The notes beneath the pieces are model-generated. The model ran no database searches. It saw only the letters and a program-made list of their open reading frames with translations, and had not been told where the DNA came from. Both the position numbers and the translations under genes were made by a program. Source: Candidatus Vampirococcus lugosii (GTDB lineage: Bacteria; Patescibacteriota; Gracilibacteria; Absconditabacterales; Absconditicoccaceae). Taken from it: a DNA stretch of 15,948 nt. Below, piece by piece: positions 1,800 to 15,948 of this stretch (its first letter is position 1; every line of letters starts with the position of its first letter). Location: the NCBI RefSeq assembly GCF_018420025.1, contig NZ_JAEDAM010000027.1, forward strand, positions 1 to 15,948, read 5' to 3'.

Positions 1800-3431
1800 A
1801 TGAATGAATCTTGAAATTGAACAGAAAATGAAACTCTTTTGAAACAAAAATTAGAAGAATTGAAAATTGAAGAAAAAAAAATTTTGGAAGAAATTCGTTC
1901 TTTAAAAAAAGAAAAAGATGATTTATGATGAGATCCTGTTTTGAAAGATTTTTATGATAAAAAAATTGAAAATAATATTTCTCGTTATAATAAATTAAAT
2001 ATTGTTTTTGAAAAAATTCAAAATCAATTAACAAATAATATAGATGATTTAATTAGAAATACTCAAAATGATTTGATAAATTCTCTTACAGCTTGACCTA
2101 TCAAGTTTGTTAAAAATAAAAATAAAAATACTTGATCTTTAAAAGATGAGAATTGAAATGATATTAAAAGTTTTTTATGAGAAGACATAAATTGAAAAAA
2201 TGTGGAACTTATTACTCATAATTGACAAAATTATTCTATTGTTAAAGGAAAATCTTGAAATGAATTTAGATTAGTAAATCTTGATAAATGATGTTTTATT
2301 AGTAATTGGTATGATAGTATTAGTTTTGATCATACTACATGATTGTTTATTGTTGATAATTGAACTGGAAATTCAAATAGTCTTATAACTTCAACATATT
2401 GAGTTTGAAAAAAATATATGACTATTGATTGAAAAATATTATGAGATGTAGATTCTTCCAAGATAGGATGTGATGAGTGATGAGTTTTTTATGAAGATAA
2501 ATTTAAATATTCATTGTCTAATAATAGATTTGAATCCAATGATGATTATGAAATAATAAACCCTGAATCTCAAAAGCAATGATTTTTGTTTGTGAGATCA
2601 AGTGTTTTATCATCTCAAGATAATAAAATATATGTTTTAAAATTAAAATCTTGAACTACATTTGGATGAGATAAAATATGAAATGAATTTGATGAAATAT
2701 TGTCTGATATAAAAGATTTTGGTGGAGAAAAATATGTAAAAGTTAGAGATTGAGAAAATATATCTTGGTTAAATCTTAATACTTCAGAGATGATTTGAAT
2801 AGATTTAATTGAAGTTGAACAAGTAAAGCAAATTGGTGATGATTGGATTTTTAAAGCAAAACAAGGAAATGATAAATATGTATTGATAAATTTGAAAACT
2901 TGAAAAATTATAAATTTTTTGGAAAAATGAGAATGAGATGAAATTTGAGATATAGAAGAAATTTGATGAATGAAATATATAAAAGTTAGAAATTGAGAAA
3001 AATATTTTTATATAAATTTTGATACTAAAGAAATTATATGATCTGGATTTGATGAAATATGAAAAATTATTCAAGTTAAAATAAAAAATGAAGATAAACT
3101 TATTTTTAGGTGAGAAAATTGAAATTTAGCTAATTATTATGATGCAAATACTTGAAAATCTTTGATACAAGATAAATTTTGTTGACTTATATCTTCTTGA
3201 GAATGATTAAAATCTTTATCATGAAAAATAGATAAATTAAATAATAAAGATATTATATATTTTCAAAATTGAAGAAAATATTTTGATCTTGAAACATGAG
3301 AAGTAAAAAAATCTCCAAAACAAGAAAAAGTTGAACAAGAAGTAGCAGAAAAATCTAAATCAGAATGATGGCTGAATAAGTGATGGAAAAATTTTAAGAA
3401 AAAACGAAATGAAACAAATATATTATGATAA
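1800..3431 (+). CDS. hypothetical protein, 543 aa: N-terminal coiled coil plus C-terminal array of WG/KWG-like beta-hairpin repeats; no signal peptide
   Basis: ATG 1800 is the first start after the in-frame TAA at 1788; TAA stop at 3429-3431. I hand-counted 47 in-frame TGA, 9 GGN and 5 TGG codons. The N-terminus reads LLKQKLEELKIEEKKILEEIRSLKKEKDD. The C-terminal half repeats units such as KYVKVRDGENISWLNL, NDKYVLINLKTGKII, KYIKVRNGEKYFYINFDTKEII, NYYDANTGKSLI and GRKYFDLETGEV. These resemble the WG-containing beta-repeat class, a motif-level impression only. Confidence 0.85.
2721..3310 (+). repeat. protein-level tandem beta-hairpin repeats inside the 1800..3431 CDS, with one still-visible nucleotide duplication
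   Basis: 2730..2759 (aaatatgtaaaagttagagattgagaaaat, KYVKVRDGEN) is repeated at 2973..3002 (aaatatataaaagttagaaattgagaaaaa, KYIKVRNGEK). 'x-T-G-K/E-x-I/V' turn motifs recur across the span. Confidence 0.6.
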
Positions 3432-3462: not shown

Positions 3463-5262
3463 ATGAGTATAGATAATCCTAATAATCTAGATAGAAATAA
3501 TTCAGTGGATAAACTTAATGATAATCCTGAAATTTTAGATATTTCTCTTGAATCTTTGGATACAGAGATTTTGGTTTGAAGATTGACAAATATTATGCAA
3601 TGATGAGAATATTGAGAAAAAGAAATTCAAACATATTCAAGTATTATTTGAAATAAAATTTTAAATAATCCTTCTGAATATTTAATTTTACAAAAAGAAT
3701 TTAAATCTAATAACTTACCAAAAGAATTTTTGGATAGTTTATTGTTGGAACATATTTTTGATTTTGATACAAAACAGGCAATAGTAGATATTATATCAAA
3801 AAATTGAAGTATAGAATATGGTGATATACAAGCAATTTTTGATTATTCTAGTTTGGAAGAAGATTTTGAACAAAAAAAACAAGAAATTGAAGAATTTAAA
3901 AATAAAATTCAAAATCAAATTAAAATTGGATGAGAAGAAAAAATAAATTTTGATCAAGATATATCAAGTTTATCAAGAGATATGGCAAATAAAGGTATTG
4001 ATCAAAATGCTATTACAAAATATATTGATTTGTATCAATCATTTAATTCTATTAAAAATAGAATGGGAGATGTAGAAAATAGTTTATTATTTAATATACA
4101 GGATAAAAATCCTAATTTTAATTTAAGAAATGTTGATGCTAGTTTGATAAATATTTTTGGAAATAGGCTAGGAGTGATAGAATATTTTCATGAAGTACAA
4201 GATACAAATTCTATACTTTGTGATATAGTAAATGCTAAACCATGAAACCTTTCTGAATGGAATCAAGTTTGGCAAAAAAGATGAATTCATTGATTATTAA
4301 CTGAAGCTATTTCAATGACATGACTTAATAGAAAAGATGCTCAAGGTATAGCAAGTATTGGTATGGTGGTAGGTGGTGCATATATTGCTTGGAAAATGAT
4401 TAAATGATTTTTTTGAGCAAAATGAATTGATTGAAAATTAATTTGGATGCTTAAAACTTGATGAATTGTATGATGATATTTTGTTGCAAAAAATATTGCA
4501 AGTGGTAAATCTCAAGAAGAGTTACAAAATAATAGAAGGGCTATTTTGGATTGACTTAGAAATGATACTGTAGCTAGAGAATCTATAAAACTTACTATGC
4601 AAAATATTTATTGAGATGATAAATTAAAGGAAGTATTAACTATTTCTGATGAATGAAATTTGGAATTAAAATGAATTTGGGATTGAAATACTTTATCTGA
4701 AAAATATAGAGAAAATAAATCAATAATTGCTATAATTAAAGCTGAATGATGAGAAATTGATGAAAACTGAAATATAAATGGTGATATTGAAAAAATTAAA
4801 AAAGAAGTAAATGATTTTTTAATTACTTGATTTACTATGTTATGAGTTTCATCTACTAATTTAAATGAAAAAAAAGATCAAAAAGTAAATGATATAATAA
4901 AAGAATTTGAAAAAGATAGAGATATAGAAGTTAGAAAATTTGCAATTAGAGATCGTATTGCAGATGATTTAATTTATAGATTAAAATCATTAAAATGAGA
5001 TACTTCACAAGCTCAAGATTTAATAGCAAGATTTAGAATTTTTGCTATATCAGAAAATGATTTTATTAATTTATGGTGAAAATTACATTCAAATATTACT
5101 AATAAAATATGATCTCAATGGATTGCAACTTTGATGGCATGATATTGAATGGAAAGTGTTCAAATGATGGAAGTAGTAGAAACTAAATCTAATTTAGCAT
5201 CTTGAGAAAATAATGAAAATAATGAAAATAATGAAGTTGATGAAGATAATGAAGTTTTATAA
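3463..5262 (+). CDS. hypothetical membrane protein, 599 aa: soluble N-terminal ~290 aa, two-helix Gly-rich transmembrane hairpin, soluble C-terminal domain with an acidic ENN-repeat tail
   Basis: ATG 3463 follows an A-rich leader like those of the other genes; TAA stop at 5260-5262. The frame was verified line by line. Hairpin: GIASIGMVVGGAYIAWKMIKGFFGAKGIDGKLIWMLKTGGIVGGYFVAKNI (nt 4345..4500). The C-terminal tail ENNENNENNEVDEDNEVL includes (gaaaataat)x3 at 5206..5232. An alternative in-frame ATG at 3409 would add 18 Y/I/N/K-rich residues and overlap the upstream gene. Track fragment 3982..4245 is internal. Confidence 0.85.
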
Positions 5263-5335: not shown

Positions 5336-8300
5336 ATGTCAAATATTGAAATTAATACTGATTCATTAGAAAATAATAATGAATCATTAGAAATTGAACA
5401 AGAACAAGATGTTTCTGAAATACTTAATGATTTTGAACTTGATGTAAGAAGGGAACTTATAGAATGAGAAACTAAATGAAATCTTGAAAGATTATGACAA
5501 GAGATAGATTCAAGATCTACTTTTGATCTTGCTTTGGAATTAATAAATGATGATAAAGAAAAAATATTAAATGAGCAAGATTCTGTTAAACTTGAATCTT
5601 TTAATATGTTTGTATGATGGAATATTATGGGTTCTATTTTTAAAAAAATTATGCAAGATAATATTGATCCATACAATGAAATCGTAGATATTGAGGAATT
5701 TAGTAAACAAATAAATTTATTAAATATTTCAAATACTCAAGATTTACAAAATTATATAAATAAAAATAATATTTCATTGACAAATAGAGAAATTCAAGTT
5801 CTTGATTTTTTGGTTCAAGATAATACAGTTTTTTCACAAGAATATAATGAAAAAAATTTTTGAAAAATATGGGATGGAATGAAAAGTGTTATGCCTGATT
5901 TTGCTTTAAAATACAATGAATGAGTTAGATCTTGATGGGATGACCTTTCTGAGCAAGAATTAAATTTTTTGGATAATATTTCTGAAAAATGATGAGATAT
6001 ATTTTCTGAAATGAAAGATGTTTGAGTTGAGTGAGTTTTTGAAAAAGATAATTGGCAAAATAAAACTTTGTCTACATGATTAGTTGCATGATGATTATTG
6101 GCTGGTGGTGCTTTAGCATTGAAATGACTTTCTAAACTTTTTGGAAATAAAAAATGATGATGAGATTGAAAAAAACTTTGATTTTTGGGTATGTTGAAAT
6201 GGTGATGAATTTTATGAGTGGGGGGCTATTTACTATATAATTGGTTCAATAAAGATTGAAAATTAAATTCTTCTGAAAATTATTGATCTTGATTTGAAAG
6301 AAATGTTAAAAGTTTTGAGCAACTTAATGAAAGTGATAGAAAAAAATATAATAAATTTTCTTTATGAGTAGATTTTTATTATAAATCTGCATATTGAGAT
6401 GATTTTTCTGATTGAATGAAAAATAATGATATGCTTTGAGAATATGAATGGGAAAATGAAAAAAATTGACTTGATTATTCATGAGTTTATCCTTATGCAC
6501 TAGACAAAAGATATAAAAATATTGATCAAATTTTGTCAGAATGAAGTTTTTTTCTAGAAACATTTAATGTTTCCAAAGAAATTTTTAAACAAAATTTATT
6601 GGGTTGGTGAGTTAATAAATTAAAAAAATATTTTGAACCATTTGCATGAATTCTTTCAAAAATAGATGGTTTTACAACAGATATATTTTTACTTCCAGAT
6701 ACTGAATTTGAAAAAAAATTTAAAAATTTTTTAGATAAAGAAGATTTTGTTGATCAAATAAGAGAAATATTTAGAAAAAATATTAAAATAATTTCCTATC
6801 TTAATAGTAGGATAGATTATTTAAAATATGAAATAATAAAACAAAACTTGTTGGAAAATGATCCAGATTTTGAAAATAAAAGTGAAACGGAAAAAGAATT
6901 TTTGATTATGGAAAAAATTGATGATGAAAAATTTATGGAAAATAAAGTAAAACCTGCTTTAGATTTATTCTTGAATTCAAAAATATTAAATGCAAATGAA
7001 ATATTGAATAATTATTGAATTTTGGATTCTTGAATAAATGAAAATTTACAAGAAAGATTGCAAGAAGTTGATGATTGGTATGAAGAAATATTGTTTGAAT
7101 GAGAAAAATGAAATTATCAAATAGATGATATTTTATCAAATTTTGAATCTTGGGATAATTTAGATGATTTAGATAAACAATATTTAAATGAATTGTCAGA
7201 AAATTTATGAGAAGATATAGATAATTTTGGAGAAAGAGAATTTTTGGAAGCATTATTTTGACCTTATTATTATTCTTTTAATTCTGAAAATATAAATTTA
7301 AGAGAATTATTACAAACTATATGATATGATGAATTTGTTTGACCTTGGAAAAAAGTTCTTGAAACTTTTTGAGAATGAAAAAATCCTACTAAAAAAGATA
7401 TTGAAAATCTTAAGCAAGTAGTAGATGATTTTTATATTTTTCAAAAGGAGATTATTATATGAGTAGATAATTTAGTAGAGATTAGAGAAGATTGAAATTT
7501 GGTAGTAAAAGCTTGATTTATTATTAAACAATTTGGTAGAGAAATTTCAAGTTTTATAGATCTTTCTTTCAAATGAGAATTTAAAGATTGATTTTTTCAA
7601 TTAAGTGCTTGAACATTACTTACTTCTATTTGGATTGCAAATAGAACACCACTTGTTAAAATTGCTTCAAAACCTATAAGTGGATTTATTTTTTCTCCAA
7701 TTAATTTAATAAAAAATCCTATTTTGAGAAAAATTCCAGCATGATTTGCTCATTATTGATTATATCCAAAAAATGATTTTGGAAAAGCAAGACTTTTATA
7801 TGATTTTGCTAGATGAAGATTGAGTTTGGAAAAATCTACTGATATTTGGAATAATATAAGATGAATAACTTGATGAAAATTGACAAAAGCTACATTTTTG
7901 CAACAAGCTTTTTGAGATTGATTAACACCACAACAATATAATTCTATTGCTAATATTTGGGAAAATAAATATCTTAGAAAACAAATTCTATCAGATAAAC
8001 CTTCAATTTTAAGAGATTTTGTTTCATTACAAAAAATACCTGATGATATAAAAATTAATATTTCAGAAAAATTGTCAAGATCTATAAATTCTATACAAGA
8101 TTTATCTTGAAATAAAAAAATGTTTTTAAATAAATTTATTAAATATTATAATGGTGATTTAGATTCTTTAAATAATATATTAAGAAATATAAATACTATT
8201 TGATTTGATAATTTAGATAATAATCAAATAAATAAATTTGCAAAATCTATTGCTAGATCTTCCAAATGATTGAGTAGTACTCAAATTAATGAAATTATTA

Positions 8301-10507
8301 ATAGTATAATTAATGAAATTAATAATTGAAATAAAATAAATTTTAATTCTTATATTAGAACTTATAGATCATCTTTTTTAAATTCTCCAACACTTATAAA
8401 ATCTGTATCTCCAGAATTATCAAGTTCTAAATTATCTAGAGTTAAATCTCCATTAGTTGGAACTTTAACTCCAGAAGAATTAAAAGATCTTGAACTTAAA
8501 GTAGAAAAAATTAAATCTTGAAATATTGAATTTAAACAAAAATTAATACAGGCAAAAAATAATCCAAGTTTATCATTAGATGAAAAAAGATTATTACAAA
8601 ATCAAATTGATTCTATAGATGATTTAATAAATAATACAACCGTTCAATCATTAAGAGAAATAAAACAAAATCCTTCAATTTTGAGAACAGTGGATTGAGT
8701 ATATGATTGACTGCATGAAAGCACAAAAGTTTTTTCTAGAACAGTTTCCAAAATGAAAGATATTATAAAATCAAGACCTCGTATTACAGCATGATGAGTT
8801 TTGACAGTATTAGATGTTGTTTTGATAACTTATTTTCATAATGTATGAATGGATTCTGCTAAAGAAATGGAGGCTATAAATCCTGATTTATCAATTGAAC
8901 TTGAAAAAACACAAAATTTATCAACTACAGTTTCTGCTTTAACATCTGCATGAGCATTATGAGCAGCAGTTTTTATTCCTTGAGTATGATGGGCTATAGG
9001 TGCAACTACTTTAATATCAATAGCATGATGGGGTTTACATGAGATTAGTATATGACAATATAGTAATACTGTAGATTTTTATAACAGAAATTTTGAAAAT
9101 TATATAGGTATGTCTAGTGCTAAAATTAAGCAATCAATAATATCAGCAGTTTCATGAATAGAATGAATAAATCCTAGTTTATGATTTAATGTTGCTGATA
9201 TGATAAAAGATGAAAAATATTTTGAAGAAAAATGAGAAGCAACTCTAAATGATGCCATAAAAGCTCTGATACATCAAGAAGAAATTTATAATTATACAGA
9301 TGCTTTTATTTGATTTGATTGGAATCTTGATAATCCAAATGAAGAAAAAATAAGGCTTTGGGATAAAGAACCAAGACATGCAAGAAAACTTACACAAGAA
9401 GAAAGAGAATATGTTAGACAAAGAAGAGAAGAATTTTATTCTATAGTAAATAAAAGATTTGAATATATAAAAAATAATAATTTATTGGCAGATTTATCTA
9501 AAAATATTGAATATAATAATTGAATATGATATATAGAAGAAATATTAACAATGTCTAGATATGTATCTAATGAAAATGAAGATGAAGTAAAAATTAATGA
9601 ATTGAAAGAAAATTGAAATTATGAAGTTTTAAATAAAATATTTATCAATAATGATAAGTTAAATGTTGAATTACTTTGTGAAACATATATTAAAGTAATA
9701 AAATGATATAATTTATGATTATTTTCTGACTATGAAGAGAATTTGGAATATTTTATTGAATATTATAATTATAAATCCAAAAATATTCATCCTTGAATAT
9801 TAAATTCAATAATTTCTAGGTATGAATCTAATATAAATGTTGATAATATTGATTTTGGAAGATTATCAAACTTTTTGGAAAATTTAAATTTTGATAAAAT
9901 ATCTAATTGGGATGAAATTCCAGAAGAAGAAATATCTTTATCAGAAAAATATTGAATATCTAATAAAGTATGACAAAATGTTTTATATTTTATAGCAAGA
10001 GATGTTTATTCATATATATGAGAAAACGATTTAGATAGTCTTAAATTATTTTTTTCTAGTGATAATAGAAAAAATTATTGAATATATTGGTCTTGAAATG
10101 CTTGGTTAGTTTATCAAAGTGGTTTTAGATTTAATAATTTAGTTCTTCAATATCCTTACGAAGATAATAATCAAGATCCTTATAGTTATGCATTTAATGA
10201 AGCTGAGTCTATAAATCCAGATTATTGAGAATGATTTTTGGAAAAATTATATGAAGCTTTTGATAATACTAATTTTATAAATCCTGATCATAATTCGGGT
10301 AGAGATAATATAAATGAAGAAAAAAAAGATAAAATATTAACTATTATAAATGAAGAAAGAGATCTAATTAATTGAAAAGATGATATTGAACAAGAGATAA
10401 ATAATTTTGTTAAAAGTAATTCTTGATCATGAAAAATACAAATACCTAGTGATTTAATTATTAAATGACTTAGAGTAGGTATTGATATTAATTCTTGGTA
10501 TTGATAA
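5336..10507 (+). CDS. giant hypothetical polytopic membrane protein, 1723 aa
   Basis: ATG 5336 follows the in-frame TAA at 5330; TAA stop at 10505-10507. Every line from 5341 to 10441 was checked and has no in-frame TAA or TAG. Hydrophobic clusters: (1) nt ~6071..6247, STGLVAGGLLAGGALALKGLSKLFGNKKGGGDGKKLGFLGMLKWGGILGVGGYLLYNWF. (2) nt ~7590..7720, FFQLSAGTLLTSIWIANRTPLVKIASKPISGFIFSPINLI. (3) nt ~8780..9045, ITAGGVLTVLDVVLITYFHNV ... TTVSALTSAGALGAAVFIPGVGWAIGATTLISIAGWGLHEI. Long N/K/E/D/I-rich soluble stretches lie between them. Track fragment 5627..5863 is internal. Confidence 0.88.
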
Positions 10508-10653: not shown

Positions 10654-11949
10654 ATGTCTAATATCAAATATTTGATAATACCTTTATTTTTTTTGATACC
10701 TATTGTTACATATTGAACACAAGATATGAGAGAAGAGTGCTATAATGATCTTACTAATTATATGTCAAAAGTAGAGCAATTTAAACCTGCATATGAAATG
10801 ATTCAAGATTTATGATATGATAAATTATCAGAGTCTTTTTCAAAAAAGTATGAAAATATGTCGTCTTTTGGTGTAGATTTGAATAAACCTATTTTATCTA
10901 TGAGATTACATTCTTTTGGTGAACAAACATCTTATCAGCATCCACCATATTCTCCATTTCCGATTTATGAGTGAACTGAAAAATGGGAAAATCCTGTTAA
11001 AGAGTTTATAATTGCTGAAGAATTTGTTACTAATCCTGAAGATTGACAAGAATATTTTATTGGTTGTTCTTTTATGAATATTCAATCTCCTGATTTAATG
11101 AGTGTTGATGCAGATAATTATTGGTATGATTGAGAAATATTATCTGTATTGGTAGAAGATAAGTCCAAAAATAATAAAGTTTGGCATAATACAAATAGAT
11201 CTTTTAATTATGAAAATGAAATATTAGCAGATTTTGATAGATTGTTTGTTTTTCCAAAATTAACTCAAAATGATTTTTTTAGTAAATATGATATAATTGA
11301 TGCATTCCCTACTAACAAAATAGATTTGAAGAAATATTTGAATGTAATAAATCCATCTGGTGATGAAGAATTACTTTTTACAGTAGTTTATGATCAAAAT
11401 TGAAATGTTATTTGATGAAGTTCTTTAGATGTTTTTAAAGGTATTTTTGATGAATCAAATAATGAAGGTTTTCCGCTTTTTGATATGTATCAAGAAATAG
11501 AAAATTTGTATCCAGAGTTTGCAAAATATTTAGCAATAAATTGATTTGTTAGTTTTGATGTTTTTAAAGAGTTAATGAATTTAAAATGAGATCATAGTTA
11601 TGCAGATTTATGGAGTTTTATATCAAGAAGTAAAGATTTAATAAAATATGCAAATCAAATTCGTAAATGAGAAGAGCCTGACATATCTAATGATACAATA
11701 TTGGTAGAATTTTATGATGAAATGTTGAAAAATATTGACTCTTTTGATAAAGATGCAAGAGAAAGAATATGATTAGAGCCATTAGAAATTAGTAATAGTG
11801 AATTAAATGAGAAAAACATAAAAAACATAAAAAATACAGAAAATGATGATTGAGATTGATTTAATTATTATATTATAATTGCAATCTTAGGATTTGTCTT
11901 TTTTATAATATTTTTGTTTATAATATTGGGTTCCAAAAATAAAAAATAA
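10654..11949 (+). CDS. hypothetical exported protein, 431 aa, with an N-terminal signal sequence and a C-terminal transmembrane anchor (type I topology)
   Basis: ATG 10654 (a GTG at 10639 is a possible alternative); TAA stop at 11947-11949. The frame was verified line by line. N-terminus: MSNIKYLIIPLFFLIPIVTYGTQD. C-terminus: GFNYYIIIAILGFVFFIIFLFIILGSKNKK, a hydrophobic helix followed by a basic stop-transfer tail. There is a small tandem (aaaaacata)x2 at 11812..11835 (KNIKNIKN). Track fragment 11149..11403 is internal. Confidence 0.85.
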
Positions 11950-11974: not shown

Positions 11975-13024
11975 ATGAAATTTAATAAAATACTTTTACT
12001 TTTATGTCTTATTTTAGTTGGTGTTTGATTTTCTTATGCAAAAATGCTTGATATAAATCAAGAAGAAGCTGAAAAACATGATTTATATAAAAATAAAAAA
12101 CTTACTGATTATCATATAGATCGGTGTAAATCATGAAATTCAAGTCTTTTAGGTAGTACATCTTGAAGTACATTTGTAACACTTGTATCATGTGTAGCAC
12201 AATGACATATTTCAGGTGCAACATTTAAATGACCTTATGAAATTGATTGAGTAGATCGTTCTGGTGAAAGGCGATGTAATTCTACAGATCCTAATTATAT
12301 TTGAAAGTGTGGGCATTGAGTTTCTCAAAATTTACCAGAAACTTATTCTGCTGAGGTGTTGTATAATATTCCATGAAATAAAATAGCAATTAAATGATTT
12401 AAAAATACTTGATCTCCTAATGTAGGTGGTACTTATAATACTCCGTTTTTGTATCTTGAAAATCAACCTGAGTGAAAAATAGATATTACTATTAACTCAA
12501 AAAGAGATAATTATTCATCACAAAGACCAGATTTTAATATAGAAAATTGATGGTCTGTATTAAATGATAATTGAAATATGTTTGTGGAATTAAAAAAAGT
12601 TGATTATTTATTCTATTTGTTAGATTTTGAAAGAATAGAACTTACTAGAAATGGTAAAAATTTTGATAGTAAAGATGAGTTAACTAATTATTTAATCAAT
12701 TCAGATTTTTTTCAAAAATTATGATTTGATGAAGAACAAAAAGAAAATTCTTTAGATTATATTTTGCCTACAATACAAGATTCTCCAAACTATTATCTTA
12801 CAGTACTGACAAAAGAATCTATACAAAATATTGTAAATTATGAATTTAGTGAAGAACCTGAAAAATTAATAAGAAGATATTTTGCTATATATCCTACATT
12901 AAATCCAGTAAAAACAAGTTGATGATTACAGTTTCCAGAAATTATAGAATATGATAATGAATATATTATCAAGGATTTTGGTGAAATATATCTAAAAAAT
13001 GGTATGTTACCTATTTGGAAATAA
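11975..13024 (+). CDS. hypothetical secreted protein, 349 aa, signal peptide plus 4 mature cysteines
   Basis: ATG 11975 follows the in-frame TAA at 11960; TAA stop at 13022-13024. I hand-counted 17 in-frame TGA, 10 GGN and 2 TGG codons. Signal peptide: MKFNKILLLLCLILVGVGFSYA|KM. Mature Cys occur in DRCKSG, VSCVAQ, RRCNST and GKCGHG. The frame was verified line by line. Confidence 0.85.
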
Positions 13025-13053: not shown

Positions 13054-15198
13054 ATGAAATTTAATAAAATACTTATGTGTAATATTGTTTTTGTAACAAG
13101 TTTAGGTATTAGTTTTGCAAGTTGACCTGATGAAGAAATTGAAGAGTCTGTAACATTGCAATGAGTAAAATTTGATGTATTGCATCATAAATATGAAGAA
13201 AGTGAGTTAACTCATCAAATGAAATGTGATGAATATTGAGAAGATTATGATTTTTTGAAGCTTACTGTTAATGGAACTTCAAGTATGATAAGTTGTGATA
13301 TAGATTGATCAAAATTGGTTCCACCAGATTGATTAGATCCAGATCCAGATCCAGATCCAACAGGTCCAGATCCAGAACCAGATCCAACAGGTCCAGATCC
13401 AGATCCAACAGGTCCAATTAGTATAACACAAACTACACAAACAGAATATGATTGTGCTACTTATACTAAATGATATCATGAAAAATGGTGAAATTGTAAA
13501 GTTAAATGAGATTGGACAGAAGATTGAAAAATTAAATGTGTACAAGAATCAGATTATGAATGACTTACAGCACCTTGTGGTCAAATGGAAGTTACAATAA
13601 CTAAATATTTTGATTGAAATTGAGATTTAATTGGTACTGATAGAAATGAAGGGGATTGTACATGATGTCCATGAGATAAGAAAAAACCTAAGTCAAAAGA
13701 AAATGATGTTATAATAAAATTAGTTCATGATAAATTTGAATGTATTTGATCTAGTTTTGCAAATAATTCTGATAAATGTTGATCAAAATTTAAGATTGAT
13801 CTTTCATGATTAAAAGATCCATGACTTGTAGATATAGAATGACTTGCATGAATAGGTATTACTAATATTAAAAATGAAACAAAAGAGCCTGCAGATATTA
13901 AATCTGCATATGATCCAGATGATAATAGTGCACTTAATTTTAGTGATGTTATTGATACTCAAATACGAGGTAGTTCTACCAATTTTGGGTTTAGAATATC
14001 AGATATTAAAGCTATATCACCATTTAAAACAACTAATTGAAAAATATCTTTTGATATTGAGAATGTTGATGTACCTTGAAAAACTAATGTAACATTAGAT
14101 AATATAAATTATTCTTTTAATAAACCATTTACTGGTAGTTTGTCAATAGATCCAAATTGAATTAGAGTTTGACAAGCTCAAGAATTAACTTTACATTATG
14201 CAACATGAACAGATATTTTAGATTTTGGAGATGATGAAGAAATAGAATATTTTGGTAATACATTAAAAGTTAATTGAACTTGATATGCATTAGTTACTAC
14301 TTGATTTGATTCAAGAGATACTGATCTTGAAATGGTTGTTAATTATGACTGATGAAATATAGATTGAGATCCACGATTAACTACAGATCCTTATATATTT
14401 TATACTGTAGATTGAAAAGATGTTAGATATCGTTTATCTGATGGTAATGAACCAAATGATCGTAGAGTTACTTATATACCTACAAATACAAGTTATTTGA
14501 ATATAAAAATTATATGACAATCTCAAACAGTATGAAGACAAGATGTAACTGGTCAAGCACAGAATTTTTCTTCTATGTCTACTTCTAATTTTAGAAATTC
14601 TTTTAGAAGAAAAGTTTTGGAATATACTAGATGATGGGAATATGATGATAATAAAGATTGAGTTTTATATCTTGATTGAGAAGGTGATACAATAGAATAT
14701 TCTAGTATATCTGATACTTTTGAGACACTTATTATTCGTAATTGAAATCTTCTTATAGATGAAGATATTAATCATATGAAATGAATTGTTGTTATTAGAG
14801 ATGATGTGAGAGAAGATACTTTATGAAATATATTTGTTAATCAAGATGTTCAAGAAATTAATGCATATATTTATTGAGATTGATGATTAATTAGTTTTGA
14901 TAAGGATGAAAATGATTCATATAATAATTATTCTGATTCTTTTAAAAGACGTGAGAATTTAGAAAATCAATTAGTTTTGGAATGAAGGTTGTATACTAGG
15001 AATACAGTATGATGAGCAATTTGAGCTTGAAAATATATGTTGCCAGGTGCTAAAGAAACTACAGATTATCATAGAGCTTTGATGTATGATTTAAATCAAT
15101 TTAGATCTTGAAGATGATCTAGTCCAGTAGATTCTAATTATACTGAGGCATTTATTATAAAATATCATACTTGACAATCTCCAAAATTATTTGAATAA
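13054..15198 (+). CDS. hypothetical secreted, adhesin-like protein, 714 aa: signal peptide, DP/TGP-repeat linker, Cys-rich module, then a long beta-rich region
   Basis: ATG 13054 follows the in-frame TAA at 13042; TAA stop at 15196-15198. The frame was verified line by line. Signal peptide: MKFNKILMCNIVFVTSLGISFA|SG. Linker: DPDPDPDPTGPDPEPDPTGPDPDPTGP. Eight Cys lie between nt ~13450 and 13790 (EYDC, GNCK, IKCV, APCG, GDCTGCPG, FECI, DKCG). The remainder is rich in T/S/N/D/G/Y alternation. C-terminal motif: NQLVLEGRLYTRNTVGGAIGAGKYMLPG...YDLNQFR. Confidence 0.88.
13336..13416 (+). repeat. in-frame imperfect tandem repeat encoding a Asp-Pro / Thr-Gly-Pro linker
   Basis: The unit gatccagatccaacaggtcca (DPDPTGP) occurs at 13348..13368 and 13396..13416. 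A 27-nt variant with an extra gaacca lies at 13369..13395, and extra gatcca copies lie at 13336..13347. The antisense translation of this repeat is the WIWIW track ORF 13333..13545. Confidence 0.9.
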
Positions 15199-15257
15199 AT
15201 CGTTTTTTTTAGATTAGAAATAATTAATTATAATTATAATAGAAATTGTCTGTTACT

Positions 15258-15307
15258 AAAATCAAGAAATTTAAGTAATTATATTTTACTTAATTTCTTG
15301 ATTTTTT
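15258..15307 (+). terminator. rho-independent terminator of the cluster
   Basis: ATCAAGAAATTTAAGTAA (15261-15278) pairs with TTACTTAATTTCTTGAT (15286-15302), giving 17 bp with one bulged T and a 7-nt loop TTATATT. A T5 run follows at 15303-15307. It lies 60 nt after the stop at 15198. A-residues at 15258-15260 could make it bidirectional. Confidence 0.6.
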
Positions 15308-15338
15308 CATAAATTTATATTTGTAGAATAAAATTTCT

Positions 15339-15363
15339 AAATCCTTGATTTATACAAGGATTT
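15339..15363. other. second short stem-loop downstream of the terminator
   Basis: AAATCCTTG (15339-15347) and CAAGGATTT (15355-15363) are perfect 9-bp arms with a 7-nt loop. No adjacent T-run is present, so the function is unclear. Confidence 0.3.
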
Positions 15364-15948
15364 GTGAGAGAATAAAAATAGATTTATGTACTACATAATA
15401 TTTTATAATCTTATTTTGAATAATTTATTTTCTATATTTTTTTGATTTTATATATATTATTATCATTAATTTGTTTTATTCAATCAATTTGTTTCAATAA
15501 ATTTTTGATAGTATTTTAAATATTCTATTTATAGATATCAATATAATTTCATTTATATATTTTTTTGTATCTTTATCTATAAAAAATTTAACAAGATAAT
15601 TAGTAAACATAAGTTTTTTAACTATATTTGCGAGTACTTTTTTTTAATAAACATATTATGATTCTTAGCACTTAAAATAATAAAAGATAAAAAATATATT
15701 ATTTCAAGAGAAAATACAATAATAATCGCCACTACAAAATAAAATATTTTTTGTTTACAAAGATGAGATAATAGATAATATTATGTTTTGAAGAGTTAAT
15801 ATTTAGAAGTTTATAAATATTCTAAATTATTAATTAATATTTTATTTGATTTGTCAATATATAAATACATAAAAATATAAATATATGATAACTATACTTA
15901 ATCATAAAAAAACATAAAATCGTTGAATTTTTACTTAAAATAAGTATA

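What the first reader, a model, noticed from the sequence alone, without database searches (positions are those of the whole stretch)
5336..10507. A 1723-aa polytopic membrane protein occupying a third of the window
Seen directly: a single uninterrupted 5172-nt frame with three separated hydrophobic clusters (nt ~6071..6247, ~7590..7720, ~8780..9045). Long hydrophilic N/K/D/E-rich domains lie between and after them, including a ~480-aa C-terminal soluble region. In small-genome CPR bacteria, a 5-kb gene is a large investment and implies strong selection. I recognise no domain in it. The Gly-rich helices, which become Gly-rich only when TGA is decoded, suggest tight helix packing of the GxxxG type.
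Basis: partly seen in the sequence, partly recalled or inferred. Interest (0 to 1): 0.7.

Follow-up and report, generated by a model that had tools for sequence, protein, structure and literature searches.

The report
Conserved giant membrane protein, function unknown
The 5.2-kb gene is real and encodes a 1723-residue membrane protein of the predatory bacterium Vampirococcus lugosii; it belongs to a previously undescribed family found across its TGA=glycine relatives, resembles no known protein or fold, and its function is still unknown.

Summary
Window 5336-10507 (+) is one 1723-codon frame with 98 in-frame TGA codons, and TGA reads as Gly. It is already in GenBank as a hypothetical protein of Candidatus Vampirococcus lugosii. 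It is VAMP_54_69 in the published list of that genome's ten largest proteins, where it has no assigned domain.

New here: it is not an orphan. An exhaustive HMMER search and a DNA-pattern scan found collinear relatives of 1,500-2,050 aa. About 16 loci come from Absconditabacterales/Gracilibacteria MAGs with TGA as a sense codon. A further divergent clade uses the standard code. All sit in chromosomal, housekeeping surroundings.

The shared plan is: acidic N-domain, Gly-rich TM hairpin with a Lys-rich loop, acidic all-alpha domain II, a weaker hydrophobic segment, basic domain III, then a three-helix membrane module and an acidic C-domain. The membrane module carries an almost invariant carboxylate (D1160), an invariant Asn (N1182) and a P-x-G-W turn. 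Some genomes encode the two halves as separate adjacent genes.

Pfam, NCBIfam, PHROGs, PADLOC, PDB sequences and Foldseek (PDB, viral) gave nothing.

Best reading: a lineage-specific, non-enzymatic membrane-embedded scaffold or machine component. Topology and function are unresolved.

The parts
5336..10507 (+). Whole gene: 1723 codons plus TAA, 98 in-frame TGA (Gly). It is NCBI 'hypothetical protein [Candidatus Vampirococcus lugosii]' and VAMP_54_69.
5336..6064 (+). N-terminal domain, aa 1-243. Acidic (net -31, pI 4.1), no signal peptide. Contains a conserved weakly hydrophobic helix at aa 84-102 (FVGWNIMGSIF).
6065..6244 (+). TM hairpin 1, aa 244-303. Two Gly-rich helices joined by a Lys-rich loop, with family motif GG-x6-K-x2-K-LFG...LKW-GG.
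6245..7591 (+). Domain II, aa 304-752. Acidic (pI 4.5) and all-alpha. It is the best-predicted part (pLDDT 80-93 for about aa 327-407 and 477-717). Motifs: VPYxLDxRY, LSE, FRKxxKxxSY, DYxxFxKE, ENGN.
7592..7735 (+). Middle hydrophobic segment, aa 753-800. A weak TM candidate (aa 753-770) followed by a strongly basic flank with almost no acidic residues (net +3 to +7 in 8 of 8 members).
7736..8779 (+). Domain III, aa 801-1148. Basic (net +20, pI 9.8; pI 9.2-10.7 in all 7 TGA-using members compared) and poorly conserved. Split-gene relatives have their break around this region.
8780..9043 (+). Membrane module TM3-TM5, aa 1149-1236. TM3 carries the conserved carboxylate D1160 (nt 8813-8815). A fixed-length 24-aa loop carries invariant N1182 (nt 8879-8881). 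TM4 and TM5 form a helical hairpin with a P-x-G-W turn (G1218 TGA, W1219 TGG).
9044..10504 (+). C-terminal domain, aa 1237-1723. Acidic (pI 4.6), mostly alpha. Starts with YYx7YxNx3Fx9KQ. Holds the family signature GQNILYRIAKExxGYxGxNDLxxLKxFF...GIYYDGxxW (here aa 1546-1590, nt 9971-10105) and the motif YxxLPxxL near the end.
3463..5262 (+). Upstream gene o4 (599 aa). Its central TM hairpin (aa 289-341, nt 4327-4485) resembles hairpin 1 of the giant protein. It has an orthologue at the same position in the closest relative's locus.
1800..3431 (+). Gene o3 (543 aa). It is syntenic with a 658-aa gene two positions upstream of the giant gene in the closest relative. No recognised domain.

Best explanation
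The gene encodes a full-length member of an undescribed, vertically inherited family of giant integral membrane proteins. The family is found in the TGA=Gly CPR lineages (Absconditabacterales/Gracilibacteria) and has divergent standard-code CPR relatives.

I read it as a non-enzymatic, membrane-embedded scaffold or machine component built from two modules.
- Module N: an acidic N-domain, a Gly-rich hairpin, the all-alpha domain II, a further hydrophobic segment, and a basic tail (domain III).
- Module C: a three-helix membrane bundle with a buried carboxylate, followed by an acidic, mostly alpha C-domain.

The charge pattern fits a six-pass topology. In that model the Lys-rich hairpin loop and basic domain III are cytoplasmic, and domain II and the C-domain (and perhaps the N-domain) face the cell envelope. 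The protein would then hold large helical domains at the cell surface, anchored by Gly-zipper helices that may also pair with the hairpin of the neighbouring o4 protein.

Shown: the gene's reality, the genetic code, the family, the architecture, the conserved residues, the split forms, the chromosomal context, and the lack of any known relative.

Inferred: the topology, oligomerisation, a non-enzymatic role, and any role of the carboxylate in ion or partner binding.
For: Family:
- The exhaustive HMMER search found 19 hits, including proteins of 1448-2044 aa.
- With table-25 translations the members align over their full length, E 1e-60 to 1e-130.
- A DNA-pattern scan found 10 further GTDB species genomes. 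All were confirmed by HMM (E 1e-41 to 1e-299) and all have in-frame TGA.
- A standard-code clade is linked by profile-profile comparison: probability 98.5%, E 2e-15, collinear.
- Sources are Absconditabacterales, Gracilibacteria and Patescibacteria MAGs.

Cellular and chromosomal: neighbours include Obg, Pth, L21, TyrRS, RecG, GatB, EF-G, sigma-70, PBP and MltG. The same pattern gave no hit in viral contigs, and the protein gave none in phage genomes.

Probably no enzyme: conserved positions are mostly aromatic, aliphatic or Gly. No library family matched any of 19 members.

All-alpha prediction, with a confident core in domain II.

Membrane module: D/E inside TM3 in 13 of 14 aligned members, invariant Asn, a constant 24-aa loop, and the PxGW turn.

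Charge alternation: domain III has pI 9.2-10.7 while the other three domains have pI 4.1-5.9, in 7 of 7 TGA-using members. The hairpin loop and the flank after the middle segment are positive. The TM3-4 loop and the flank after TM5 are negative.

Modularity:
- The halves are separate adjacent genes in L014; the family also falls into two ORFs in L017, where a frameshift is not excluded. N-half-only proteins P0009 and P0012 exist.
- The N-domain plus hairpin is duplicated in a 685-aa neighbour in L019.
- The o4 hairpin resembles the giant protein's hairpin, z = 6.6 with 0 of 500 shuffles reaching the score.
Against: - No function was tested and no partner is known.
- The six-pass model needs export of a 243-aa N-domain that has no signal peptide.
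- TM3 and the middle segment are only moderately hydrophobic in several members, so the number of passes is uncertain.
- Acidic domains are also normal for cytoplasmic proteins.
- The structure models are mediocre overall (mean pLDDT 62-64, pTM 0.44-0.56). They were built from shallow alignments, partly with Trp mistranslated for Gly, so 'no fold match' is weak evidence.
- Gene neighbourhoods are variable and give no functional hint.
Confidence: 0.5

Rival explanations
1. Host-recognition or attachment adhesin of the fibrous cell surface. This is the role Moreira et al. 2021 suggested for the genome's giant membrane proteins in general.
For: The paper infers membrane localisation for the ten longest proteins, this one included, and links them to the fibrous surface and host attachment. 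The protein is very large. Three acidic domains may be external under the positive-inside reading. The window also encodes secreted proteins, o6-o8, with signal peptides.
Against: There is no signal peptide. There are no adhesin-type beta domains or tandem repeats, and unlike most of the other nine giants it has no interaction domain. It is collinear across genomes of 22-45% GC from varied samples and across the code boundary. That pattern is unusual for host-specific adhesins, which tend to be variable. The conserved buried carboxylate and fixed-length membrane loop point to a function inside the membrane.
Confidence: 0.2
2. Cytoplasm-facing membrane scaffold. Each hydrophobic cluster would be a hairpin or an in-plane wedge, so all four large domains stay in the cytoplasm. 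It could serve cell shape, division or stacking, in the way spectrin-like or dynamin-like membrane proteins work.
For: No signal peptide and a 243-aa N-domain. The domains are highly charged and all-alpha. The hydrophobic clusters come in pairs. Cell-wall genes (PBP, LysM-CHAP, MltG, M23 peptidase) lie within a few genes in two loci.
Against: This topology goes against the charge bias at every boundary examined, in most members for each. It also does not explain the acidic/basic/acidic alternation, which switches exactly at the hydrophobic clusters. No GTPase or other known cytoskeletal domain is present. The cell-wall neighbours are not conserved across loci.
Confidence: 0.2
3. Ion-coupled transporter, channel or feeding pore. 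The buried carboxylate and Gly-rich helices would form an oligomeric conduit used to take up prey material or to energise work in the envelope.
For: Almost invariant D/E in TM3, invariant Asn, and Gly-zipper helices. The organism depends on its prey for nearly all building blocks (paper).
Against: There are only 5-6 predicted membrane helices in 1723 residues. There was no match to any transporter family or fold. Most of the conserved mass is soluble.
Confidence: 0.08
4. Artefact: a chimeric assembly, a frameshifted pseudogene, or a non-coding AT-rich stretch that happens to be open.
For: The genome came from whole-genome-amplified cells (MDA/MALBAC), which can create chimeras. The contig is short (15.9 kb).
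Against: An open frame of this length has a chance probability of about 6e-66. Codon-position composition is strongly periodic. The protein is collinear end to end with independent relatives from other samples.
Confidence: 0.02

Closest known systems
Giant membrane or surface proteins of CPR/DPANN episymbionts, as catalogued for V. lugosii (Moreira et al. 2021, PMC8080830)
   Same: Very large, membrane-associated and lineage-restricted, in a reduced genome of an epibiotic predator. This very ORF is on their list.
   Different: Most of the other listed giants carry known domains such as PKD, alpha-2-macroglobulin or a beta-propeller. This one has none. It lacks a signal peptide, is all-alpha, and is conserved collinearly across the class.
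EsaA/YueB and YhgE/Pip-type proteins of monoderm bacteria (comparison from my own knowledge)
   Same: Polytopic proteins in which a long, mostly alpha-helical domain is inserted between transmembrane segments and projects through the envelope.
   Different: No sequence match in Pfam or NCBIfam and no Foldseek match. The helix count is different, no type VII secretion genes were seen nearby, and the basic internal domain and carboxylate module have no counterpart.
Ion-driven envelope machines with a buried carboxylate: MotB, ExbD, TolR with TolA/TonB (comparison from my own knowledge)
   Same: An almost invariant Asp/Glu inside a membrane helix, combined with long helical domains that could reach across the envelope.
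   Different: No homology was detected. Everything is on one (or two) giant polypeptides, and no MotA/ExbB/TolQ-like partner was recognised in the locus. This is an analogy only.
Bilobed-hairpin membrane proteins without signal peptides, e.g. chlamydial Inc proteins (comparison from my own knowledge)
   Same: Paired hydrophobic helices flanked by large soluble domains, with no signal peptide.
   Different: The loop here is long and Lys-rich, and the family is conserved. The V. lugosii paper lists a Sec system and type IV pili and found no flagellar genes, and it mentions no type III system.
Phage tape-measure proteins
   Same: Long, alpha-helical, with Gly-rich hydrophobic segments. They gave the weak top-ranking Foldseek noise hits in the viral library (E >= 0.12).
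   Different: No PHROG match, no phage genes nearby, a chromosomal housekeeping context, and no hit in phage genomes or viral contigs.

Membership tests
Genes read with genetic code 25 (TGA = Gly; SR1/Gracilibacteria) | In-frame TGA codons that behave as Gly, with TAA/TAG as the only stops | tested here: met
   There are 98 in-frame TGA. TGA+GGN matches GGN in the standard-code relative. Gly is enriched 6-fold opposite TGA while Trp is not. GGN and TGA interchange at the conserved PxGW Gly. The paper states the same code.
The giant-protein family defined here (unnamed; P0002, P0003, P0005-P0007, P0014, P0017 and others) | Collinear full-length similarity (N-domain, hairpin 1, domain II, middle segment, domain III, TM3-5, C-domain) | tested here: met
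   31.9% identity over 1895 columns to L003. phmmer E 3e-233 to 1e-9 against the family ORFs of 15 of the 16 other loci compared (L012 and L015 reached only by iterated search).
The giant-protein family defined here | Signature motifs: carboxylate in TM3, loop Asn, PxGW turn, YY...N...F...KQ, and GQNILYRIAKE..GY.G.NDL..LK.FF..GIYYDG..W | tested here: met
   D1160, N1182, P1215-G-V-G-W1219, and aa 1546-1590 are present. The DNA pattern matches once in the window, with 0 matches in 200 shuffles.
Any Pfam, NCBIfam, PHROG or PADLOC family | Score at or above the family threshold | tested here: not met
   The best Pfam hit was MgtE_N, E 0.011 and 16.7 bits against a cut-off of 25.9. No family recurred among the 19 members scanned.
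Phage tape-measure protein | PHROG/Pfam tape-measure match and a tail-gene neighbourhood | tested here: not met
   No PHROG hit, no phage genes nearby, and no phage or viral DNA hit. Neighbours are housekeeping genes.
EsaA/YueB/YhgE-Pip membrane proteins | Match to the curated family models; type VII secretion context | tested here: not met
   No NCBIfam or Pfam match and no Foldseek PDB match. No Pfam-annotated type VII secretion genes in the loci examined.
Adhesins of the CPR cell surface | Signal peptide or anchor plus repeated beta-rich binding domains (PKD, Ig, fibronectin, integrin-like) | tested here: not met
   No N-terminal hydrophobic signal, no such domains, and an all-alpha prediction. 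Surface exposure itself was not testable.
Ion-coupled stator or energiser proteins (MotB/ExbD/TolR-like) | Buried carboxylate essential for ion flow, plus a MotA/ExbB/TolQ partner | not testable with these tools
   A conserved carboxylate is present. No homology and no partner were detected, and function needs experiment.

The most novel reading that the evidence does not exclude
The family is the core of an unrecognised envelope-spanning machine specific to the TGA=Gly predatory or episymbiotic CPR bacteria. In this reading a Gly-zipper membrane bundle with an almost invariant carboxylate couples ion flow, or a membrane signal, to large helical ectodomains that act at the contact with prey cells in attachment or feeding. 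The two modules can also work as separate subunits, and o4-like hairpin proteins would be partners.
Probability: 0.12. Interest if true: 0.8.

Novelty: new variant of a known kind. Interest (0 to 1): 0.45.

Why it matters
About half the proteins of these bacteria have no annotation, and how they attach to and drain their prey is unknown. This work turns one 'hypothetical giant' into a defined family that recurs across the class. The family has a domain map, testable residues (D1160, N1182, the PxGW turn), a topology hypothesis, natural split forms and a candidate partner (o4). A gene of 5-6 kb kept in genomes of about 1 Mb probably does something central. The family also gives a clean internal demonstration of TGA=Gly. 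It shows too that many database copies are mistranslated with Trp, which hides such families from routine searches.

Tried and rejected
- Word-index protein searches with the whole protein, with the 19-sequence alignment and with the standard-code relative P0008 each returned only the query. The exhaustive HMMER search was what found the family.
A hand-made 81-nt degenerate pattern, chosen to avoid Gly codons, worked.
This probably explains the low confidence in the Gly-rich helices.
- PDB sequence and profile searches gave nothing.
- Promoter and terminator scans were at chance level. There were no tRNAs or Rfam families.
- The family HMM found no paralogue among neighbouring large proteins in the first seven loci, and iterated searches with the window's other ORFs found nothing. 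BLAST plus shuffle tests did support o3 and o4 orthologues in L003.
- Phage or mobile-element origin, tape-measure protein and defence system were considered and rejected.
- The taxon of the standard-code locus L004 could not be named.
Full report
**1. The observation**

The window has about 22% GC and a strongly positive GC skew. Under table 11 it has no ORF longer than 136 codons. With TGA as a sense codon, eight consecutive + strand ORFs appear. The largest runs from 5336 to 10507: 1723 codons plus TAA.

This frame contains 98 TGA, no TAG, and only the terminal TAA. The other two frames contain 124 and 163 TAA/TAG. From base composition, the chance of such an open frame is about 6e-66, and 200 shuffles never exceeded 182 codons. 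Third codon positions are 92% A/T.

The middle one is weak here, with a Kyte-Doolittle score of about 1.0. The hydrophobic segments are 16% Gly against 6% elsewhere. Two thirds of those Gly are TGA codons, and there are four GxxxG motifs.

**2. Genetic code**

Across the window's ORFs there are 284 TGA, 97 GGN and 43 TGG codons. Reading TGA as Trp would make the proteins more than 5% Trp, which is implausible.

Three results from relatives are decisive.
- TGA+GGN per gene is 121-144 in TGA-using members. A standard-code relative with no in-frame TGA has 140 GGN.
- Opposite TGA, other sequences have Gly 20.5% of the time (6-fold enriched) and Trp 0.8%. The standard-code relative has Gly 31% and Trp 0.4%. 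The caveat is that the alignment was built with TGA read as G.
- At the conserved P-x-G-W turn, the Gly codon is GGC/GGA/GGT in four genomes and TGA in three, always followed by a TGG Trp.

The source paper states the same reassignment.

**3. Identity**

The protein is identical to 'hypothetical protein [Candidatus Vampirococcus lugosii]'. Its only contig in the database is 15,948 bp, which is this window. In Moreira et al. 2021 (PMC8080830) it is VAMP_54_69, 'hypothetical protein, 1723', one of the ten largest proteins. The paper infers membrane localisation for those ten and links them in general terms to the fibrous cell surface and host attachment. No domain was assigned to this one. So the ORF and its membrane nature are already published. 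Its family and anatomy are not.

**4. It is not an orphan**

Pfam, PHROGs, NCBIfam, PADLOC and PDB sequences gave nothing for it, nor for any of the 19 family members scanned. Word-index searches failed.

An exhaustive HMMER scan with aa 526-1723 found 19 proteins. They include full-length relatives of 1541-2044 aa. Many have excess Trp, which is table-4 mistranslation. Named sources are Candidatus Absconditabacterales, Candidatus Gracilibacteria and Patescibacteria-group MAGs, all annotated 'hypothetical protein'.

After re-translation with table 25, the members align end to end with E 1e-60 to 1e-130. The closest, L003, shares 31.9% identity over 1895 columns covering aa 19-1722 of the window protein. 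This also excludes a chimeric or frameshifted ORF.

A hand-built 81-nt degenerate pattern for the C-terminal signature matched once in the window and in no shuffle. It matched 10 GTDB species genomes. All 10 were verified by the family HMM (E 1e-41 to 1e-299) and all contain in-frame TGA. The same pattern had no match in viral contigs, and the protein had none in phage genomes.

A clade with the standard code (P0008, P0016, P0010; 43% GC, no in-frame TGA) is clearly related in the C-domain (E about 1e-11). Profile-profile comparison makes it collinear over about 1300 columns, with probability 98.5% and E 2e-15.

**5. Context**

In every long contig the gene sits among chromosomal housekeeping genes: Obg, Pth, L21, TyrRS, RecG, GatB, CoaE, EF-G, sigma-70, UvrC, PBP and MltG. 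Neighbours vary. Several are other large proteins with no Pfam match, often with a central hydrophobic segment, and some recur between loci.

In the closest relative, the two genes upstream are orthologues of the window's o3 and o4 (Smith-Waterman z = 17.7 and 22.9 against shuffles). So o3-o4-giant is a conserved trio, at least locally.

The central hairpin of o4 resembles hairpin 1 of the giant protein: 42% identity over 60 aa, z = 6.6, and 0 of 500 shuffles reached the score. In another genome (L019), a 685-aa gene next to the giant gene carries a duplicated N-domain plus hairpin.

**6. Anatomy shared by the family**

- **N-domain** (aa 1-243): acidic, no signal peptide.
- **Hairpin 1** (244-303): conserved 'GG' in TM1, K-x2-K-LFG, a Lys-rich loop, then LKW-GG.
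- **Domain II** (304-752): acidic. Motifs VPYxLDxRY, LSE, FRKxxKxxSY, DYxxFxKE and ENGN.
- **Middle segment** (753-800): followed by a flank of net +3 to +7 with almost no acidic residues, in 8 of 8 members.
- **Domain III** (801-1148): poorly conserved and basic (pI 9.2-10.7 in 7 of 7 TGA-using members). The other three domains have pI 4.1-5.9.
- **Membrane module** (1149-1236): TM3 with Asp/Glu at the position of D1160 in 13 of 14 members, including the standard-code clade by inspection. A 24-residue loop of constant length carries invariant N1182, usually followed by Arg three residues later. TM4 and TM5 are joined by the P-x-G-W turn.
- **C-domain** (1237-1723): opens with YYx7YxNx3Fx9KQ and carries GQNILYRIAKExxGYxGxNDLxxLKxFF...GIYYDGxxW, with YxxLPxxL near the end.

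Conserved residues are overwhelmingly aromatic, aliphatic or Gly. No catalytic-looking motif stands out.

**7. Fused and split forms**

In L014 an N-half gene ends with TAA. Ten bases further on is the ATG of a C-half gene, which is P0015-like and starts MVDILQ. L017 also shows two ORFs, overlapping by 88 nt in different frames. P0009 and P0012 are N-half-only proteins.

The N-half ends with the basic domain (pI 9.1-9.5). The C-half starts with about 270 mildly acidic residues before TM3. The two modules can therefore exist as separate polypeptides. In this window they are fused in one continuous frame.

**8. Structure**

AlphaFold2 on aa 1136-1723 with 14 sequences gave pLDDT 62 and pTM 0.44. 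The model is helical apart from a small beta hairpin at the GIYW...W motif.

On aa 228-862 with 13 sequences it gave pLDDT 64 and pTM 0.56. There is a confident all-alpha core, pLDDT 80-93, at about aa 327-407 and 477-717. The membrane helices are poorly modelled.

**9. How it most likely works**

Shown: this is a real, conserved, chromosomal, polytopic, mostly alpha-helical, two-module protein without enzyme signatures.

Inferred from the positive-inside rule and the domain-scale charge alternation: a six-pass topology. The Lys-rich loop and basic domain III would be cytoplasmic. Domain II, the TM3-4 loop and the C-domain would be external.

The weak point is the N-domain, which would need export without a signal peptide. 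The marginal hydrophobicity of the middle segment and of TM3 also leaves the number of passes open.

I therefore favour, at about 0.5, a lineage-specific membrane-embedded scaffold or machine component. Gly-zipper helices and the buried carboxylate would mediate assembly, possibly with o4-like hairpin proteins, or ion or partner binding.

Rivals:
- Host adhesin (0.2). This is disfavoured by the lack of a signal peptide and adhesin domains, and by deep collinear conservation.
- Purely cytoplasm-facing scaffold (0.2). This conflicts with the charge pattern.
- Transporter or pore (0.08).
- Artefact (0.02).

**10. Novelty and verdict**

The ORF is already annotated and listed in the literature.

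What is new is the family itself: at least 17 loci including the window. The report adds its signature residues, the charge architecture, the split forms, the hairpin paralogues, and the finding that it matches nothing known.

It is a new, uncharacterised variant within the known phenomenon of giant membrane proteins in CPR episymbionts. It is interesting to specialists and experimentally tractable, but no mechanism has been demonstrated. Interest 0.45.

Noticed in passing
window 3463-5262 (hairpin at nt 4327-4485): The gene just upstream (o4, 599 aa) has a central Gly-rich TM hairpin whose sequence resembles hairpin 1 of the giant protein (42% over 60 aa; z = 6.6 against shuffles). It has an orthologue at the same position in the closest relative's locus. 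It is a possible membrane partner or a duplicated module.
   Followed up: partly
window 1800-3431: o3 (543 aa) contains repeated segments of the type 'KY(V/I)K(V)RNGE..Y.IN..T.EII', reminiscent of WG-type beta repeats, but it has no significant Pfam hit. It is syntenic with a 658-aa gene in locus L003 (z = 17.7).
   Followed up: partly
window 11975-13024 and 13054-15198: o7 and o8 begin with nearly the same signal peptide (MKFNKIL...), so they are probably paralogous secreted proteins. o8 has a (D/E)P and TGP-rich linker (DPDPDPDPTGPDPEPDPTGPDPDPTGP) and many Cys. o6 (10654-11949) has a signal peptide plus a C-terminal TM anchor. None has a recognised domain.
   Followed up: no
window 15199-15948: The last 750 nt of the contig have no ORF under any stop-codon assignment tried, and no tRNA or Rfam match. 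This is an AT-rich non-coding stretch at the contig end.
   Followed up: no
window 7500-9000: GC skew falls from about 0.4 to about 0.03-0.05 inside the giant gene. The dip largely coincides with the basic, acid-poor domain III, so it may reflect amino-acid content (fewer GAN and Gly codons) rather than a junction; codon counts in the dip were not made.
   Followed up: partly
L014 615-8000 (-) and L017 2-6795 (-): In these relatives the family is encoded as two adjacent genes, an N half and a C half. In L014 the halves are separated by a TAA followed by a new ATG; in L017 the two ORFs overlap by 88 nt in different frames, so a frameshift is not excluded there.
   Followed up: partly
L019 4672-6729 (-): A 685-aa gene directly downstream of the giant gene (P0006 type) repeats that gene's N-domain and TM hairpin almost word for word. 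It continues with an unrelated C-terminal part that has another Gly-rich hydrophobic segment. This looks like a recent partial duplication.
   Followed up: partly
L011, L012, L015, L016, L018 (GTDB genome contigs): MAGs titled 'uncultured Candidatus Peribacteria bacterium' carry 10-23 in-frame TGA codons in their copy of this gene. They evidently use TGA as a sense codon, so the organism label or the assumed code of these records looks wrong.
   Followed up: no
database proteins P0002, P0003, P0006, P0007, P0012, P0014, P0017: Many public copies of the family are translated with table 4 (Trp at every TGA). This gives Trp-rich 'membrane helices' such as WAVWWGAYLLWRWW. It depresses similarity scores and probably degraded the structure predictions.
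   Followed up: partly
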